Below are positions 3,001-9,000 of a stretch of DNA of 11,983 bases, one piece after another. Positions within the stretch are counted from its first letter, which is position 1, and each line of letters begins with the position of its first letter. Made by a program: the position numbers. Source of the DNA: a virus (lineage: Duplodnaviria > Heunggongvirae > Uroviricota > Caudoviricetes); IMG/VR virus record IMGVR_UViG_2574179916_000005, positions 1 to 11,983 of that record; one strand, given 5' to 3'.

Positions 3001-6000
3001 GCATTAGCACATAAAAGTGGTGATAAAATAAGAGATATTTATAATAGAACTACTTATTTAGAACAACGCAAAATTATGATGCAATGGGTAGGAGATTTTT
3101 TTGATGAGGCGAGAAAAGGGGTAATTAATAGATCCGGTGGTAAGAAAGGTTTGAGAATAGTAAATGGTTGAGGAGTTCAGCAAATGAATACCAATGAAGA
3201 TATTTTATTTACTAAAGACGTAATGAAAATTTTGCGCTATGGGGCAATGAGCGCATTCATCAATTTCTGGAAAGATGAAAATAATGGTTTTCCTCAACCG
3301 TTCAGAATTGGGCGGCGGCATACCTGGCACCGTAGAGATGTAGAGGCATGGTTAGATAAACAACGAGAACAGGCCAATCCCCACTAATAATATCTTTCAT
3401 ACCCCGCACGCAATGCGGGGTTTTTTGTATGTGAGGTAAAAACGATGAATAAAAATATTGCCGTGACGGGCAAGGGGTACGCTCGTTCAGTAAAAAAATT
3501 CTGCGATATTCGTGATCTTGTCGTTCTGCGCTTTAATGGCGTGGATGTTCGTGTGGTGTATCTGAACGGCGATCCGTGGTTTGTTGCAAACGATGTTTGT
3601 GCTGCGCTGGAACTAACCAATTCGCGTACGGCGTTGCAGATGCTTGATGATGATGAAAAGGGAGTAAATTTAACTTACACCCCAGGAGGAAATCAGAATA
3701 TGAGCATTATCTCTGGGTCAGGTTTCTACAAACTAATAGCCCGCAGCCGCAAAGCAACGACGCCTGGCACATTTGCTCATCGTTTCAGTAACTGGGTATT
3801 CAGAAATGTGATACCGGGTATCAGAGAAACAGGGGCTTATGGTATCCCATGGGGTGCATTACAGGATTTTTCCCGCCGTAAAGAGCAATATCAAATAAGT
3901 GCCAGCGAGAAGGGGAGGGGGCTACAGGCATGTAAGCGCAAAAAGCGTGAGCTGGAGGAAGAAGAAAAAAGGCTGATACGTGAATATCAGCCTGAGTTTT
4001 ACTTTGGTAACCGCATTCAGTGACAAAACAAAGGCGACCGGGGGCGGTCGCCAATGGGAAAGCACTAAACATAAGCACGGGGATGATAGCCGCTATCAGG
4101 CTGGTGGGCAATGCAATCAGTCTGGTTCAGTTCGTTGCCATACCTGCAATGAGCGCGTTTCCCTGTACTCTTTAAGGAATTGCTCAAGGGCAAAAGCACA
4201 TGGCGCGAATCTTTCTGATTCATGCTCTATCTTTCTGCGCCGTCTTTTCCGTGCCGGTGATAATGTTTTGGTCAATTCTTTATCGGTCATTGTGTTGTCC
4301 TGCATAGCAATGCGCCGTAATACCTTACACCACGGCGCTGATGGTGATTACTCTGGTTCTTTGGCCTTGCGGCGCTGGCGGCGTTTGATCTCGCCTTCAA
4401 GTGCCGAAACGATAAATTGCCCAGTGCTTTCGCCTTCTTCCTTTAAATTTTCTACAGCGTCAGCTATTGCATGGGGGACTCGTGCCTCAAGTTTTTTGGA
4501 TTTTCCATTAACTGCTTTCGTTGCCATATCTGATTTCCTTGTTATTAGGTGGCTGACAGTATACACACAAGAAAATGGAAAAACACTATTGACGTGGCTG
4601 ACACCTGTTACTAGTATAGTGGCTGACACCTTTATTGAGGTAATCGATGAAAAGACAAAGCCCGCAGGTGCTACCAACACCAACGGGCTTCTAACCACCA
4701 ACGATAGAAAGAGTATCGAGGTAGCTATGAGAAATCATACCACACACCCGCAAGGGCGGGACTCGCACAACCTGAATAAATACATCTGGCGTTTTATCGC
4801 CCTGAGCACGGCACAACCGCGCGTGATTACCATTGAGGCCACTAGCGAACAGGAAGCACGCCAGCAATCCCCGGCTGGCTGCGTGATGGTATTCGCCGCC
4901 CGTATTCGTCAGGGGGTACGCCATGTGCAATAACACCCGTCCGGACGCAGCCGCCGAAGCAATCAAAACACTGATTGATGCGCTGATTGATATTTCTGTT
5001 ATCGCGGACAGGGCGCATAAGCACGCTACCAGTGAAACAGAATATACCAGGGCTTTCGTTCCTCGCTCACTGGTTGCTATGCGGATTATCGCTGATATGG
5101 CACTGAATGAGGCCAGCAAAATTATCATGGCTGATATGGAGGTGGTGAGCCATGCATAATCATGAAACGCACTTACCTGTAGTGCTGAATGTGCCATCAG
5201 ATTATACGGGTCGCGTACTGGTGTATCTGGGAAAAGGCCGGGTTAGATGCCAGTGCCGTTTAATGGAAAACGAATTTATCAGCACTCTTGCGGGATTTTC
5301 TGAAATGCTCACTAAATCGGGTGTTAGTGCAGACCAGTTATGCGGGGGCGATTATGCGAAATAAACGTGATATTGAAGACCTGGCATTTGAAGCCCTGCA
5401 CTCTGCGAAAAAGATCAGGGAAGTCGTCAATATGTGGATGAACAGCCTTAGCACCGATAAATCCGATAGCAGAGAAGAAATTCTTATTTCTTTGTTGTTA
5501 GACCTGGCAAATACACAGGTTTCTCTGACATCTGATATTGAACTCGCCGCTAAAAAGCAGCCTCTGGAGTAAAAACCATGAAAAAGAAAAATTCTGGCAT
5601 TACTGCCAGCGGCCTCTCTCGGCCTGAAATCCGCCCAGGCGATATTTTCCGGGATAACTACGGCGGCACGGTAACGATTAAAAGCGTGGCGGGACGGTGC
5701 GTTACTTACCGCCGTGATGGGTACGGCTATGACTGCGTGATGCCTGTTTATCAGTTCCGGCGTGATTTTTCACTGATACAGGCCACACCACGCAAACAGC
5801 CCACCAGCAACGCCAGGGCACGGGCGAACATTCAGAAAATGAAAAACATGATTAACGCATTCAGGGGCAAAAAATGAAACTGGCACCGAACTTAAAAAAA
5901 CAGCCACACGACAAAATGACCGAAGTCATTATTTTTGCGGGTAGTGATGCCTGGGCGCACGCGAAACAATGGCAGGAGCAGGACGGGCGACTTGCTGGCG

Positions 6001-9000
6001 ATAACGTCCCGCCTGTATGGCTGGGAGACAGCCAGCTTGACGAACTGGCAGACCTTAAAATCATCGACGATGGTCGCTATTGTGTCCGGCTGTACAAGGC
6101 AGGCCACATCAAGCCGTCAAATATTAATGCCATCGGGCAAAAGCTGGCGACGGCAGGTGTACGGGATGCGAATTATTACCCCGAGGGAATGCACAGCCAG
6201 AAGCGGGAGGAGTGGCGCGAATATCTGGAGCGTGAGCGCCAGAAAAAAATGTCCGGAGAGATACCGGAGGAAGAAAAAAACGAACAGCGAAAAACCACGC
6301 TACCAATGAGTATTGGATCTGCAGGGTACGACACACAGCTTGATTATGTCGTTAAGGGCGTGATTCCGGCTAATTCGTTGTGCAGCACATACGGCGCGAG
6401 CGGTTCCTATAAATCGTTCCTTGCGTGTTCCTGGGCGTGTCATGTTGCCACTGGTCGCCACTGGGGAGGCCGCAGGGTGGCGCATGGTTCGGTGATGTAT
6501 GTTGTCGGTGAAGGTGGCATTGGTGTCCCCCGTCGTATCAAGGCATGGGAAATCGTTAATGATGAACGGGTGAAAAATCTGTACCTGGTAAACCGCCCGA
6601 TTTTTCCGGCAGCCCCGCTTGATGTTGATGAAATGGTCATCGCTTCCCGCCAGGTTGAACGGGAAACGGGTAAACCGGTACGCATGATTATTCTGGATAC
6701 GCTGGCGCGTTGCTTTGGCGGTAATGATGAAAATGACGCGCGGGATATGGGGGCGTTTATCCGTGGATGTGACGAACTGAAACGCCGCACAGGGGTCACG
6801 GTGCTGGTGGTTCACCATTCCGGCAAGGATGAAACAAAGGGAGCGCGTGGTTCCAGTGCATTTCGTGCATCTCTGGACGCTGAATACCGTATTCGCCGGG
6901 AAGGTGCAGACAGCGAAGCTCTGGTTATCTCCTGCACCAAAATGAAGGACGCGGAGGAACTGAAAGAGGCTGCATATGATTTACGTGTGGTGGAGCTTTT
7001 TACCGACACTGACGGGGAGTTAATCACGTCGCTGGTGGTTGTGGATAAGCCGCGCCCGCCTGTTGAACTGGAACGCATCGAGGAAGCCGGGAACAAGACG
7101 GAGAATCATGCCGCGCTATGGGGATGTATCCGTTCACGCACACAGCGTGGCGATAAATGCACTATTCCGTTGTTGCGCGATGATATGAAAAAGCTGGGGT
7201 ATGAGATGAAACACTTCCGGCGCTGGCTGTACAAGCTGGAAGGTGATGGCGTTATTGCTATTGACGGTGATGACGTGCGCCCACTGTAAAAAGTGGGTAG
7301 TAAAAGTGGGGAGTGTGGGGAATTTAACAAAATTGAAACGTGATTCCCCACTTTCCCACCTGTATATACCCCAAAAAGTGGGGAGTAAAAAACACATTGA
7401 AAAACAGTACATTAGAGTCACAAAAAAAAGAAGTGGGGAGACGTTGGGTAATTTCAAAAAGTGGGGAACAAAAGTGGGGAGTGGTGAGGAATGACCAGAA
7501 AAACCAGAGATAAAACAGCGCCAAAATATCGCGCATTAGACATGACAGAGCACGCCTTAAAGGTGGCAATCAGAACAATAGACCGCCATGCCGGAGAAGG
7601 ATACGCGAAAACACATCCCGAACTGATAAGCGCATTCATGACAGCGGCGGCGGCAAACTTTGCCACGCTGACAGAGCTGGAGATAGCCGAAGCGGAACAG
7701 GTGACAACCATCAACGTTAAAACCGGAGAGCAGACAGCATGACAGCACAGATAGCGGCTTACGGGAGGCTGGCGACTGACCCGCAGTTAAAGACCACCAG
7801 CAAAGGGACACAAATGGCGATGGCGAGTATGGCGGTCCCACTGCCATGCAGTCAGGCAGATGACGGAACGGCGACGATGTGGTTATCCGTCCTGGCGTTT
7901 GGCAGACAGGCCGATGCGCTGGCCAGACACCACAAAGGCGAACTGGTGAGCGTGGCGGGTAACATGCAGGTAAGCCAGTGGACAGGCCAGAACGGGGAAA
8001 CGCGGCAGGGCTGGCAGGTTATCGCAGACAGTGTAATCAGTGCGCGAACGGCGCGACCGGGCGGCAAAAAAGGCCAGCAGGGCCAGGCTACTGACGCACT
8101 GAACAGGGCAAAACAACAGGCGGGGAATGATGATCCGTACGGGGATAACATACCGTTTTAAGCAACGAGTAACAGAAGCCGGAGTAATCCGGCTTTTTTA
8201 TGGGTCCTTCCGGTGTAGTGACCTGCCACGGGGCGGGAGCGTCGCGGGAAAAGGCTGGTTTTTGCATTTTCATGGCGGCGGCAGCATGTGTGATAATTTA
8301 TTGATAATTAAAAATTATTTCTGTTTTCACCTGTACAATATTTTTTTCTCCCTGTCATTAGACCAGTTTGCAATTAATTGAAATATATAAATAAATTTGT
8401 TTTTCACCTGCCAGATGGAGTTGCCTGTGTAAAACGTGTTCAGATGGCGGGATATTTATGCCGGATTCTCTCCGGCATTTTTTGTGTCTGAATCTTATTA
8501 ATCTATTTTTATGATAGAAATGTGTTTATCTACCACATTTATCGATCAATAATGTGCACAGTTTAGTCAGTAAGAGGAAGTTACTGTGAGTTGTATTAAT
8601 GACCTGAACACGGGCGATATCAGGGGTGGTTCCGTTCATCTGGATGCGCAGACCGTTATGCGCCTTAAGCAGTACAGGATCGACCATATAAATCATCATC
8701 CTGACAAACCATTACCAGGTGTGGCGCAGATTGTCAGACATGCCGTAAACACCTGGCTTAATCAGAATGGTTTTGCATCGGTGGGGGAATAATGAATCGC
8801 TGGTACACCATTAAGGCGGCGGATGTGCGTGGAGCGGCGGATATATCTATCTATGAGGAGATTGGCGGCTTCGGTGTTACTGCAAAGCAGTTCGCGGAAG
8901 ACCTGAAAGCCCTTGGCGATGTTTCACATATCAATCTGAGGATCCATTCACCTGGTGGTGATGTGTTTGAAGGCATCGCCATCTATAACCTGCTACGGAA

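What the first reader, a model, noticed from the sequence alone, without database searches (positions are those of the whole stretch)
4727..7289. Six-gene translationally coupled replication operon
Every junction from 4727 to 5877 has start/stop overlap (ATGtgcaaTAA, ATGcaTAA, ATGcgaaaTAA, ATGA). Five unannotatable small proteins precede the RepA-like ATPase. There is no primase domain, although primase-helicase pairs are usual in P4-like and PICI elements, so one of the small ORFs or the Rep N-terminal 170 aa may supply priming or loading functions.
Basis: seen in the sequence. Interest (0 to 1): 0.45.

Follow-up and report, generated by a model that had tools for sequence, protein, structure and literature searches.

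The report
Satellite-island early operon ending in Rep
This is the repressor-controlled early operon of an E. coli-type phage satellite island: a cell-division-inhibitor-like gene, three variable small genes and an RgdR-type regulator, then a helicase that starts replication at repeats just downstream. It is a new allele of a known layout, not a six-protein replication machine.

Summary
The six co-oriented ORFs at 4727-7289 are real. Four of the five junctions overlap (11, 8, 11 and 4 nt). The fifth, 5572/5578, is a 5-nt gap, so "every junction" is wrong. The layout recurs in all eight related E. coli islands examined, including the O157 CP-933C locus (Rep 88% identical); the literature names CP-933C and the capsid-forming satellite EcCIEDL933, which I equate by inference.

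Only the last gene is demonstrably a replication gene. Rep has a RepA-type ATPase core. Its C-terminal K-X-F motif covaries with the iterons that lie just 3' of the gene (7292-7480).

Two of the small proteins are annotatable. Gene 1 is Icd-like. Gene 5 is 75% identical to RgdR, a characterised regulator of type III secretion. Genes 2-4 vary between islands, are sometimes frameshifted, and are absent from 80 other-species Rep loci.

"No primase domain" is correct and informative. Orthologous cores in other genera carry a zinc-ribbon plus Toprim primase. Here that is replaced by a roughly 125-aa domain shared with D5-type and DUF927-type satellite Rep proteins. It lacks the zinc ribbon and the canonical Toprim acidic motifs. 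A near-identical island has swapped the helicase-origin cassette exactly at this domain's end. Priming is most likely done by the host. This is a new member of a known kind, of modest interest.

The parts
4348..4527 (-). Divergent YlcI/YnfO-family small protein (59 aa from the ATG at 4527). Likely the island-specific repressor of the operon.
   Evidence: NCBIfam NF041551 at E 1.6e-16 and phrog_949. It pairs with the Icd-like gene in about 11 other loci. The operator sequence changes with the YlcI variant between islands.
4549..4628 (+). Three exact GTGGCTGACA repeats (4549, 4594, 4619) bracketing a sigma-70-like promoter, TTGACG-17-TAGTAT (4589-4617). Putative operator and promoter of the operon.
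   Evidence: 3 exact copies here plus one 1-mismatch match elsewhere in the window; 0 of 200 shuffles reached that total. Promoter scan. Repeats also reported.
4655..4726 (+). Conserved 5' leader: hairpin 1 (GCCCG...CGGGC), then TCTAACCACCAACG, then hairpin 2 abutting the SD. Function unknown.
   Evidence: The fold of 4624-4740 gives -30.9 kcal/mol, z -4.25. A regex for the motif matches about 20 of 92 held loci across genera, plus one apparently spurious minus-strand match. Hairpin 2 has compensatory changes at 2 pairs. No Rfam match.
4727..4933 (+). Gene 1: Icd-like protein (68 aa), first ORF of the operon.
   Evidence: NCBIfam NF033153 at 69.8 bits against a cut-off of 25. Annotated the same way in E. 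coli relatives. dN/dS 0.09-0.40.
4923..5159 (+). Gene 2: orf78, a small protein of unknown function and a variable accessory gene.
   Evidence: phrog_5146 at E 3e-37. Present in 8 of the 9 operons compared, the window included. dN/dS 0.35-0.64. No Pfam, PDB or PADLOC match.
5152..5364 (+). Gene 3: orf70, a small protein of unknown function and a variable accessory gene.
   Evidence: phrog_340 at E 5.6e-19. Homologues lie in the early-left region of Fels-1 and in Klebsiella prophages. dN/dS 0.18-0.47 in divergent pairs.
5354..5572 (+). Gene 4: orf72, a small protein found only in the closest relatives.
   Evidence: Only weak PHROG hits. Seen only in the window, L001 and L085. The ORF is kept open, with dN/dS 0.41-0.55 on very few changes.
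5578..5877 (+). Gene 5: DUF4222 protein (99 aa), an orthologue of RgdR (ECs1581). Predicted Tudor/KOW-like beta-barrel plus a basic C-terminal helix. ATGA-coupled to rep.
5874..6248 (+). Rep N-terminal domain (aa 1 to about 125), an alpha/beta fold. It is shared with D5-type and DUF927-type satellite Rep proteins and sits where relatives carry a Zn-ribbon/Toprim primase.
6327..7010 (+). Rep helicase core (aa about 152-380), a RepA/DnaB-like RecA-fold ATPase.
   Evidence: Pfam AAA_25 at E 6.4e-44, aa 152-320. RSF1010 RepA 1g8y at E 0.0095. Orthologues at 50-71% identity in about 80 species.
7070..7289 (+). Rep C-terminal domain (aa about 400-471) with the motif K-H-F-R-R-W. Inferred iteron-recognition domain.
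   Evidence: The K-X-F residue covaries with the iteron core across 72 loci with no cross-class case. E. coli E2 Rep is 93.6% identical but has KNF and GTGAGGA iterons.
7292..7480 (.). Replication origin: seven AGTGGG(G/T)A iterons (six direct, one inverted) in two sets flanking a 75% A+T stretch (7390-7429).
   Evidence: 8 matches in the window, 7 of them here, against an expectation of 0.55, with 0 of 200 shuffles reaching 8. Repeat families. Composition.
7491..7742 (+). orf83 (phrog_1231), conserved between the origin and the SSB gene and ATGA-coupled to ssb.
7739..8161 (+). Single-stranded DNA-binding protein, the second clearly replication-related gene of the module.
   Evidence: Pfam SSB at E 7.4e-16 and TIGR00621.

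Best explanation
The region is the early (regulation plus replication) transcription unit of an Escherichia-type phage-inducible chromosomal island with capsid genes. The island is inserted in a resident prophage's terminase gene.

A divergent YlcI/YnfO-family protein probably represses a promoter at 4589-4617 through three GTGGCTGACA operators (inferred). The transcript starts with a conserved structured leader. It then carries, tightly packed and probably translationally coupled:
- an Icd-like gene,
- three fast-evolving accessory genes of unknown function,
- an RgdR-type DUF4222 gene,
- rep.
It then runs through the origin into orf83 and ssb.

Only Rep, the origin and SSB form the replicon. 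Rep is a three-part initiator-helicase:
- a C-terminal domain that reads the AAGTGGGGA iterons immediately 3' of the gene (supported by covariation),
- a RepA/DnaB-like ATPase core that would assemble and unwind at the A+T-rich centre (inferred from family),
- an N-terminal domain of about 125 aa in the position where orthologues carry a zinc-ribbon/Toprim primase.
That N-terminal domain has no zinc ribbon and none of the canonical Toprim acidic motifs. It is shared by satellite Rep proteins built on three different helicase cores. It most likely serves as a common adaptor or regulatory module, and as the homology arm for swapping helicase-origin cassettes. Primers would come from host DnaG (inferred, not shown).

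The small upstream genes act on the host or helper rather than in replication. By homology these roles are inhibition of cell division for Icd and transcription modulation for RgdR.
For: Anatomy: ORFs, overlaps and SD motifs; promoter and operators; no + strand terminator predicted between 4727 and 7800.

Island identity:
- 95% nucleotide identity to E. coli islands annotated with the same gene series, followed by capsid, decoration and terS genes.
- The O157 locus next to roxA has the same operon, with Rep 88% identical. That locus fits the 14.93-kb CP-933C/OI-51 of PMC3378721, and I equate it with EcCIEDL933 of 10.1101/2022.09.08.507074.

Rep and origin:
- AAA_25 at E 6e-44.
- Seven iterons flank a 75% A+T core, matching the origin layout described for Gram-negative PICIs (PMC6092414).
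- K-X-F motif against iteron core: KHF/GTGGGGA 9 of 11, KNF/GTGAGGA 22 of 24, KKF/GTGGGGGA 25 of 29, KSF/GTGCGGC 8 of 8, with no cross-class case. A 93.6%-identical E. coli Rep has switched both.

Primase replacement: orthologous cores carry Zn_Ribbon_Prim + Toprim_3 with EGYATA and DxD motifs.

N-terminal domain:
- Confident model.
- Found only at N-termini, in 158 clusters out of 1.84 billion representatives. It is attached to D5_N/DUF5906 in 19-20 of the 34 full-length representatives scanned, to DUF927 in 13 and to VapE in 1; only the window Rep added as query scored AAA_25.
- E. coli B1-56 is 95-96% identical on both flanks, but window 6239-7542 is replaced by a D5-type core plus its own origin.

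Small ORFs are not replication partners: plus the published sufficiency of rep-ori in EcCICFT073 (PMC6092414). They are real genes: dN/dS 0.2-0.6 in divergent pairs and PHROG membership.

RgdR orthology: PMC3378721.
Against: - Nothing here was tested experimentally in this element.
- The rep-ori sufficiency result is for an island with a D5-type core, not this RepA-type core.
- DUF4222 is ATGA-coupled to rep in all 9 E. coli-type operons whatever the core. That is compatible with a functional link to Rep that I cannot exclude.
- The K-X-F/iteron classes largely follow clades, so the covariation rests on few independent events.
- Repression by YlcI and host-DnaG priming are inferences.
- Similarity to P1 Icd is at profile level only; tblastn did not reach P1.
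Confidence: 0.72

Rival explanations
1. One reading: all six genes form a dedicated replication operon. One of the small proteins, most plausibly the rep-coupled DUF4222 protein, acts as primase, helicase loader or origin-remodelling factor for the primase-less Rep.
For: The packing is tight and conserved, and the DUF4222 gene is ATGA-coupled to rep in 9 of 9 E. coli-type operons. It is also adjacent to rep in Citrobacter and in one Xenorhabdus locus. RgdR binds DNA non-specifically (PMC3378721). Rep lacks the primase its orthologues carry.
Against: orf78, orf70 and orf72 are absent from all 80 other-species loci, and DUF4222 from 78 of them. Some small ORFs are frameshifted in otherwise intact islands. 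None of the five has a primase, zinc-ribbon or ATPase signature. The DUF4222 fold is a 50-residue Tudor/KOW-like barrel. vB_KppS-Ant and Pmp7 have the same Rep N-terminal domain but no detectable DUF4222 gene. Published rep-ori sufficiency exists for a related island (PMC6092414).
Confidence: 0.08
2. The Rep N-terminal domain is itself a cryptic, non-canonical Toprim primase. Rep would then still be a bifunctional primase-helicase, as its orthologues are.
Confidence: 0.07
3. Genes 2-4 are not functional genes but spacer ORFs. On this reading they are kept open only because translation must run through to prevent Rho-dependent polarity on rep.
For: Comparisons with the closest relatives show no excess of synonymous changes: orf78 0 synonymous against 9 non-synonymous codons, orf70 2 against 7. 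Content varies and frameshifts occur in relatives. No functional annotation exists.
Against: In more divergent pairs dN/dS is 0.18-0.64. orf78 and orf70 belong to PHROG families with strong scores. orf70 relatives occur in unrelated prophages.
Confidence: 0.08

Closest known systems
CP-933C / OI-51 of E. coli O157:H7, which I equate by inference with the capsid-forming satellite EcCIEDL933 (10.1101/2022.09.08.507074; PMC3378721)
   Same: The order is the same: divergent YlcI/YnfO gene, Icd-like gene, overlapping small ORFs, DUF4222 (RgdR), RepA-family Rep, iterons, orf, SSB, then capsid genes. Rep is 88% identical and has the same KHF motif and AGTGGGGA iterons. The DUF4222 protein is 75% identical.
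   Different: The O157 island has seven small genes before rep rather than five, lacks orf72, and sits next to roxA rather than inside a prophage terminase gene. The window protein has Pro at RgdR residue 20, giving RPGD instead of RGD. The capsid here is a protease-capsid fusion.
Pri-Rep/ori replicon of Gram-negative PICIs such as EcCICFT073 (PMC6092414)
   Same: The rep gene is followed at once by an origin with two iteron sets around an A+T-rich centre. The islands share int and alpA upstream, the Rep N-terminal domain (62% identical to the Nissle island protein, which I take to be EcCICFT073-like on the basis of the shared roxA site) and the Icd-to-DUF4222 cassette.
   Different: The helicase core there is D5_N/DUF5906/Pox_D5 (SF3-like), not AAA_25/RepA-like, and the iterons differ. 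Neither type has a recognisable primase catalytic domain, despite the name 'Pri'.
Zinc-ribbon/Toprim primase fused to a RepA-like helicase in other Enterobacterales islands; same architecture class as T7 gp4 and the primase part of P4 alpha
   Same: The helicase core and C-terminal domain are orthologous at 56-71% identity, with the same origin position and iteron logic.
   Different: Those proteins carry about 340 aa with Zn_Ribbon_Prim, the EGYATA motif and DxD. The window Rep has an unrelated-in-sequence 125-aa domain instead.
RSF1010 RepA hexameric helicase (PDB 1g8y)
   Same: The same Pfam family, AAA_25, and a weak direct sequence match over the ATPase core.
   Different: RSF1010 divides the work among RepA (helicase), RepB' (primase) and RepC (initiator). 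Here the initiator function appears fused to the helicase and no primase is encoded in the visible part of the island.
Phage P1 immI operon (c4 RNA, icd, ant), from PMC11897509 and my recollection of Riedel et al. 1993
   Same: A small Icd-family ORF opens a tightly coupled operon behind a structured leader and overlaps the next gene.
   Different: Similarity to P1 Icd is at HMM level only. No c4/CI-type RNA was detected. The downstream genes are not antirepressors.

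Membership tests
Gram-negative PICI / cf-PICI replication module (Rep + ori) | [quoted passage not shown] | tested here: met
   Seven AGTGGG(G/T)A copies lie at 7292-7384 and 7432-7480 around a stretch of 75% A+T at 7390-7429.
Gram-negative PICI / cf-PICI replication module (Rep + ori) | Island context: int and an alpA-like gene upstream in the same orientation, and packaging or capsid genes downstream. | tested here: met
   Integrase at 1933-3171, a 67-aa HTH gene at 3184-3387 and Bro-N at 3445-4023. Downstream are a protease-capsid fusion at 8792-10705 and a DUF1441 terS-like gene at 10906-11448.
Gram-negative PICI / cf-PICI replication module (Rep + ori) | Helper-phage-dependent induction, and autonomous replication driven by rep-ori. 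| not testable with these tools
   This needs induction and plasmid-maintenance experiments. It is published only for relatives (PMC6092414; 10.1101/2022.09.08.507074).
RepA/DnaB-like (AAA_25) replicative helicase | A RecA-fold ATPase core with Walker A and Walker B motifs that matches the family profile above threshold. | tested here: met
   PF13481 at 150 bits against a cut-off of 27, aa 152-320. Invariant GASGSYKS and ILDTLAR in 21 homologues. 1g8y at E 0.0095.
RepA/DnaB-like (AAA_25) replicative helicase | Hexameric ring and 5'-3' unwinding activity. | not testable with these tools
   No full-length structure prediction or biochemical assay was done.
Bifunctional primase-helicase (zinc ribbon + Toprim, as in T7 gp4 and the primase part of P4 alpha) | An N-terminal Cys4 zinc-binding domain. 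| tested here: not met
   No Zn_Ribbon_Prim hit, and only one Cys in aa 1-139. Orthologues in other genera do have it.
Bifunctional primase-helicase (zinc ribbon + Toprim, as in T7 gp4 and the primase part of P4 alpha) | Toprim catalytic motifs: Glu after strand 1 (EGYATA) and DxD after strand 3. | tested here: not met
   Strand 1 ends in VIIFAG, with a nearly invariant Ala22 and invariant Gly23. Strand 3 ends in LYKAG. There is no Toprim Pfam hit, and hhalign against true Toprim N-termini gives probability 0.1%.
Bifunctional primase-helicase (zinc ribbon + Toprim, as in T7 gp4 and the primase part of P4 alpha) | Toprim fold. | tested here: inconclusive
Icd (phage P1 cell-division inhibitor) family | Matches the Icd-like profile above the curated cut-off. 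| tested here: met
   NF033153 at 69.8 bits against a cut-off of 25, aa 19-62.
Icd (phage P1 cell-division inhibitor) family | Binds FtsZ and blocks Z-ring formation (PMC11897509). | not testable with these tools
   No direct tblastn similarity to P1 at E 0.01 or better. Function is inferred from the family name only.
RgdR / DUF4222 | DUF4222 domain, 99 aa, and high identity to ECs1581. | tested here: met
   PF13973 at 85 bits. 75% identical over 99 aa to the O157 CP-933C-locus protein.
RgdR / DUF4222 | RGD tripeptide at residues 20-22, reported as important for activation of type III secretion (PMC3378721). | tested here: not met
   The window has R19-P20-G21-D22. Pro20 is shared with L085 and L004.
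Translationally coupled operon | The stop codon of each gene overlaps or abuts the start of the next, and there are no internal terminators. | tested here: met
   Four of five junctions overlap and one has a 5-nt gap. No + strand terminator-like site lies within 4727-7800. Actual coupling was not tested.
Helper-embedded PICI (PMC10111431) | The island is integrated inside a prophage late gene and co-oriented with it, with int next to the truncated late gene. | tested here: met
   A GpA_ATPase terminase fragment (aa 1-331) at 776-1771 ends 161 nt before int. The arrangement is the same in E. coli B1-56. The right junction lies outside the window.

The most novel reading that the evidence does not exclude
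The roughly 125-aa Rep N-terminal domain is a catalytically dead descendant of the primase Toprim domain. It has become a universal adaptor of enterobacterial satellite replicons. On this reading it recruits a host factor such as DnaG, or the co-translated Tudor-like RgdR protein, to whichever helicase follows it. It also provides the conserved recombination arm that lets islands exchange helicase-origin cassettes across helicase superfamilies (RepA-like, D5-like, DUF927). RgdR's reported effects on host virulence genes would then be a side effect of a replication- or transcription-coupling role.
Probability: 0.15. Interest if true: 0.55.

Novelty: new member of a known kind. Interest (0 to 1): 0.3.

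Why it matters
As it stands, this is a new allele of a layout already present in characterised E. coli satellites (Rep is 93% identical to the nearest database protein). It changes nothing fundamental.

Three by-products are useful to people who work on satellite replication:
1. The proteins annotated 'Pri' or 'DNA primase' in Gram-negative PICIs, and this RepA-type Rep, share an N-terminal domain that is not a recognisable primase. True zinc-ribbon/Toprim versions of the same helicase exist in other genera. How these satellites are primed is therefore an open and testable question.
2. A near-identical island shows a clean swap of the helicase-origin cassette at the domain boundary. This is direct evidence that replicon specificity is exchanged as a module.
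3. A single residue in the Rep C-terminal K-X-F motif tracks one base of the iteron. That gives a simple, testable recognition rule for replicon incompatibility or specificity.

The RgdR link also places a known regulator of virulence genes in a fixed position immediately upstream of rep in these islands.

Tried and rejected
- Rfam scan of the whole window at E 1 or better found no c4/CI-type or other RNA. The only hit was a spurious eukaryotic lncRNA match.
- PDB sequence searches for genes 1-4 found nothing. PADLOC gave no defence-system match for any gene.
- tblastn of the DUF4222 protein against phage records gave no match. The Icd-like protein reached only vB_KppS-Ant, not P1.
- hhalign of the N-terminal family against the true primase N-termini showed no similarity, so common ancestry cannot be argued from sequence.
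- Foldseek against the PDB for the N-terminal model gave nothing significant. The afdb50 library was unavailable.
- I considered that the 168-aa and 172-aa minus-strand ORFs overlapping the operon (4691-5197, 6300-6818) might be genes. I rejected this because they are shadow ORFs opposite conserved, annotated + strand genes.
- I considered that genes 2-4 might be non-coding because close comparisons lack a synonymous excess. More divergent pairs give dN/dS below 1.
- I ran no further search on full-length Rep or on its C-terminal domain. Its winged-helix nature is therefore not shown.

Full report
**1. What is in the sequence**

| Gene | Coordinates | Length (aa) |
|---|---|---|
| 1 | 4727-4933 | 68 |
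| 2 | 4923-5159 | 78 |
| 3 | 5152-5364 | 70 |
| 4 | 5354-5572 | 72 |
| 5 | 5578-5877 | 99 |
| 6 (rep) | 5874-7289 | 471 |

- Each start has a GAGG/GGGG/GGAGG-type Shine-Dalgarno motif 6-12 nt upstream.
- The junctions overlap by 11, 8 and 11 nt, then comes a 5-nt gap, then a 4-nt ATGA overlap.
"Every junction overlaps" is wrong for 5572/5578.
- No + strand terminator-like site lies between 4727 and 7800.
- A sigma-70-like promoter, TTGACG-17-TAGTAT, lies at 4589-4617. It is bracketed by three exact GTGGCTGACA repeats.
- A 59-aa YlcI/YnfO-family protein is encoded divergently at 4348-4527.
- Overlapping junctions also occur elsewhere in the window at 776, 7739, 8792 and 11445. Tight packing is a property of the whole element.

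**2. What element this is**

- The region is 95% identical at nucleotide level to chromosomal islands in E. coli. Parts of it match 1850 of 5426 complete E. coli genomes.
- In E. coli clone D i14 the annotated series is: integrase, HTH, YlcI/YnfO (minus strand), Icd-like, three hypotheticals, DUF4222, "helicase RepA family protein", a hypothetical, SSB, major capsid, decoration protein, terS.
- The window has the same order, with a ClpP-like protease-capsid fusion and a DUF1441 terS-like gene.
- An O157:H7 island next to roxA has the same operon, and its Rep is 88% identical. This locus fits the 14.93-kb cryptic prophage CP-933C/OI-51 (PMC3378721). I equate it by inference with the capsid-forming satellite EcCIEDL933 (10.1101/2022.09.08.507074).
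- The window is therefore an Escherichia-type PICI with capsid genes.
- It sits inside a lambda gpA-like terminase gene, truncated after 331 aa at 776-1771, with int co-oriented. This is the helper-embedded configuration of PMC10111431.

**3. Is the architecture conserved?**

I compared nine operons, the window plus eight E. coli relatives.

- All nine start with the Icd-like gene and end with DUF4222 followed by rep.
- Between these lie one to five small ORFs drawn from at least seven families.
  - orf78 is present in 8 of 9.
  - orf70 is present in 7 of 9.
  - orf72 occurs only in the three closest.
- Overlaps are 4, 8, 11 or 14 nt. Each operon has a 1-6 nt gap at one or two junctions, always including the one before DUF4222. 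DUF4222 and rep are joined by ATGA in all nine.
- One small ORF is annotated as frameshifted in each of two otherwise intact islands.
- Divergent pairs give dN/dS of 0.2-0.6 for every family. The ORFs are real but weakly constrained genes. The closest pairs carry too few changes to judge.

**4. Are the small genes replication genes?**

The evidence says no.

- I searched the 80 other-species loci that hold an orthologue of the Rep core by tblastn at E 1e-3.
  - orf78, orf70 and orf72 were found in none.
  - DUF4222 was found in two.
  - The Icd-like gene was found in eight, almost always next to the YlcI gene, which was found in ten.
- In E. coli the same cassette precedes three different replication proteins: RepA family, D5_N/DUF5906/Pox_D5 "DNA primase family", and DUF927.
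- orf70 relatives lie among small early-left genes between the repressor and xis/int of phage Fels-1.
- None of the five proteins has a primase, zinc-ribbon or NTPase signature, a PDB relative by sequence, or a PADLOC match.
- For the related island EcCICFT073, a cloned rep gene under an inducible promoter plus its ori sufficed to maintain a plasmid (PMC6092414).

**5. What the two annotatable small genes are**

- Gene 1 passes NCBIfam NF033153, "host cell division inhibitor Icd-like", at 69.8 bits against a cut-off of 25.
  - P1 Icd is a 73-aa FtsZ-binding inhibitor of division (PMC11897509).
  - The similarity is at profile level only, so this function is a lead and not a finding.
- Gene 5 carries DUF4222 (85 bits) and is 75% identical to the O157 protein.
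  - That protein is RgdR/ECs1581. It activates LEE1 and type III secretion, represses motility, and binds DNA weakly and without specificity (PMC3378721, PMC10877973).
  - The window protein has Pro at residue 20 (RPGD), where RgdR has the RGD motif.
  - Its predicted core (aa 20-68, pLDDT about 90) is a Tudor/KOW-like barrel followed by a basic helix.
  - This fits RgdR acting as a transcription cofactor. That is an inference.

**6. Rep: core, C-terminus and origin**

- Residues 152-320 match AAA_25 at E 6e-44, and RSF1010 RepA (1g8y) weakly.
- Seven AGTGGG(G/T)A iterons lie 3' of the stop codon, against a chance expectation of 0.55 per window, with 0 of 200 shuffles reaching the observed count.
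- They form two sets, 7292-7384 and 7432-7480, around a 75% A+T stretch at 7390-7429. This is the origin layout reported for Gram-negative PICIs (PMC6092414).
- Across 72 loci the residue X in a C-terminal K-X-F-x-(R/K)-W motif tracks the iteron core, with no cross-class case.

| Motif | Iteron core | Loci with at least 3 copies |
|---|---|---|
| KHF | GTGGGGA | 9 of 11 |
| KNF | GTGAGGA | 22 of 24 |
| KKF | GTGGGGGA | 25 of 29 |
| KSF | GTGCGGC | 8 of 8 |

- The classes largely follow clades. However, E. coli E2 Rep is 93.6% identical to the window protein yet has KNF with GTGAGGA iterons. KHF also occurs on two different sequence backgrounds.
- I infer that the C-terminal domain is the iteron reader and that Rep is an initiator-helicase.
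- The replication module extends downstream to orf83 and SSB (7491-8161). It does not extend upstream.

**7. The missing primase**

- No primase domain is detectable in Rep or in any small ORF. No primase domain was detected in the other large ORFs scanned from the visible part of the island either.
Orthologous cores, 56-71% identical over aa 138-471, occur in Xenorhabdus, Pectobacterium, Serratia, Morganella, Erwinia, Pantoea, Dickeya and others. There they are fused to an N-terminal region of about 330-365 aa with Zn_Ribbon_Prim, Toprim_3, the EGYATA motif and DxD.
- Other lineages have a different 117-aa N-terminus, or none.
- The window type has about 125 structured residues plus a charged linker.
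  - AlphaFold gives a confident four-strand alpha/beta fold (pLDDT 89).
  - Foldseek finds nothing significant.
  - hhalign against the true primase N-termini gives probability 0.1%.
- The canonical Toprim positions are occupied by a nearly invariant Ala22 followed by invariant Gly23 after strand 1, and by K-A-G after strand 3. There is no zinc motif.
- It is therefore not a recognisable primase. At most it is a degenerate Toprim. E17 and D43 are at least 90% conserved, so I cannot exclude catalysis absolutely.

**8. The N-terminal domain is a shared, swappable module**

- A profile search of 1.84 billion cluster representatives finds it in only 158, always at the N-terminus.
- Of the 34 full-length representatives scanned, 19-20 continue with D5_N/DUF5906, 13 with DUF927 and one with VapE. 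Only the window Rep, added to the scan as the query, scored AAA_25.
- Identity of the window domain to other Rep N-termini:

| Protein | Identity |
|---|---|
| B1-56 D5-type | 91% |
| Nissle D5-type | 62% |
| DUF927-type | 47% |
| vB_KppS-Ant | 43-44% |
| Pasteurella Pmp7 | 27% |

- Most telling, the E. coli B1-56 island is collinear with the window at 95-96% identity over 67-6238 and 7543-10395. Window 6239-7542 is replaced there by a D5-type core with its own origin. That stretch covers Rep from about residue 122, the C-terminal domain, the iterons and the start of orf83.
- The helicase-origin cassette is thus exchanged as a unit at the boundary of the N-terminal domain.
- The partner helicases belong to different superfamilies. 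The N-terminal domain's job is therefore unlikely to be part of the unwinding mechanism.
- I favour an adaptor or regulatory role with priming by host DnaG. This step is inferred, not shown.

**9. Regulation (partly inferred)**

- The operator repeats differ between islands in step with the YlcI variant.
  - The window and the O145 island have GTGGCTGACA.
  - Clone D i14 has GTGTGTTTCA.
  - O157 has GTGCGATTCA.
  - Nissle has (G/A)TGTAAG(A/C)CA.
  - This supports an island-specific repressor-operator pair.
- The 5' leader (4655-4726) is conserved across genera.
  - It comprises a nearly invariant hairpin with a variable loop, the sequence TCTAACCA(C)CAACG, and a second hairpin abutting the SD.
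  - It folds well (z -4.25).
  - A regex for the motif matches about 20 of 92 held loci, plus one apparently spurious minus-strand match. One true match lies directly in front of a Xenorhabdus primase-helicase gene.
  - The second hairpin shows compensatory changes at two pairs.
  - It has no Rfam family. Its role is unknown.

**10. Verdict**

It is wrong that the five upstream genes are unannotatable replication components.
- The region is a new allele of a known satellite module. The nearest Rep in a database of 5.8 billion proteins is 93% identical.
- Interest is modest. The open points worth testing are how these replicons are primed, what the shared N-terminal domain does, the K-X-F/iteron rule, and the conserved leader.

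Noticed in passing
window 282-1771 and 1933-3171: The island is integrated inside a resident prophage's lambda gpA-like large terminase gene (GpA_ATPase, cut after 331 aa), just downstream of that prophage's DUF1441 gene. The integrase is co-oriented. This is the helper-embedded PICI arrangement, and E. coli B1-56 has the same one (PMC10111431).
   Followed up: partly
window 4655-4726; also L001, L002, L004, L013, L030-L032, L035, L045, L047, L048, L080, L081, L085-L091: A conserved structured leader lies in front of the first ORF: two hairpins joined by TCTAACCACCAACG. It is found across genera, in one case directly before a Xenorhabdus primase-helicase gene. It has no Rfam family and its function is unknown.
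   Followed up: partly
window 67-138, 8194-8273, 10730-10809: An element of about 85 bp (GGGTCCTCCCGGTGTAGTGACCTGCCACGGGGCGGGAGCG...GCATTTTCAT) occurs three times on the + strand, each time after a terminator-like hairpin. The copies lie before the prophage DUF1441/terminase genes, before the island capsid module and before the island DUF1441 gene. It may be a shared late-operon control site.
   Followed up: partly
Rep aa about 445-452 (window 7206-7229) and iterons 7292-7480; loci L001-L088: One residue in the Rep C-terminal K-X-F-x-R-W motif tracks the iteron core across 72 loci: H with GTGGGGA, N with GTGAGGA, K with GTGGGGGA and S with GTGCGGC. No cross-class cases were seen.
   Followed up: yes
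window 4549-4628 versus L001, L087, L089, L091: The operator repeats differ between islands together with the YlcI/YnfO variant: GTGGCTGACA, GTGTGTTTCA, GTGCGATTCA and (G/A)TGTAAG(A/C)CA. This suggests several immunity-like specificities.
   Followed up: partly
proteins P0128, P0132 (E. coli): These 233-aa proteins are annotated as SSB and carry the SSB Pfam domain, yet their first 135 residues or so are 75% identical to the Rep N-terminal domain. They look like deletion fusions that removed the helicase core and origin.
   Followed up: no
window 8792-10705: A single 637-aa ORF fuses a ClpP-like prohead protease to a major capsid protein (Phage_capsid_4). It is annotated the same way in E. coli B1-56.
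   Followed up: no
L006/L012, L009/L015/L082, L010/L028, L023/L027 (Xenorhabdus genomes): Several Xenorhabdus genomes carry two or three separate copies of islands with the primase-helicase version of this Rep. Some copies are truncated at the N-terminus.
   Followed up: no
window 3980-4305 and L085 4254-4617: The 700-nt stretch between the Bro-N gene and the ylcI gene has no convincing gene. In B1-56 it is annotated as a truncated hypothetical pseudogene. It was not examined for RNA genes beyond the negative Rfam scan.
   Followed up: no
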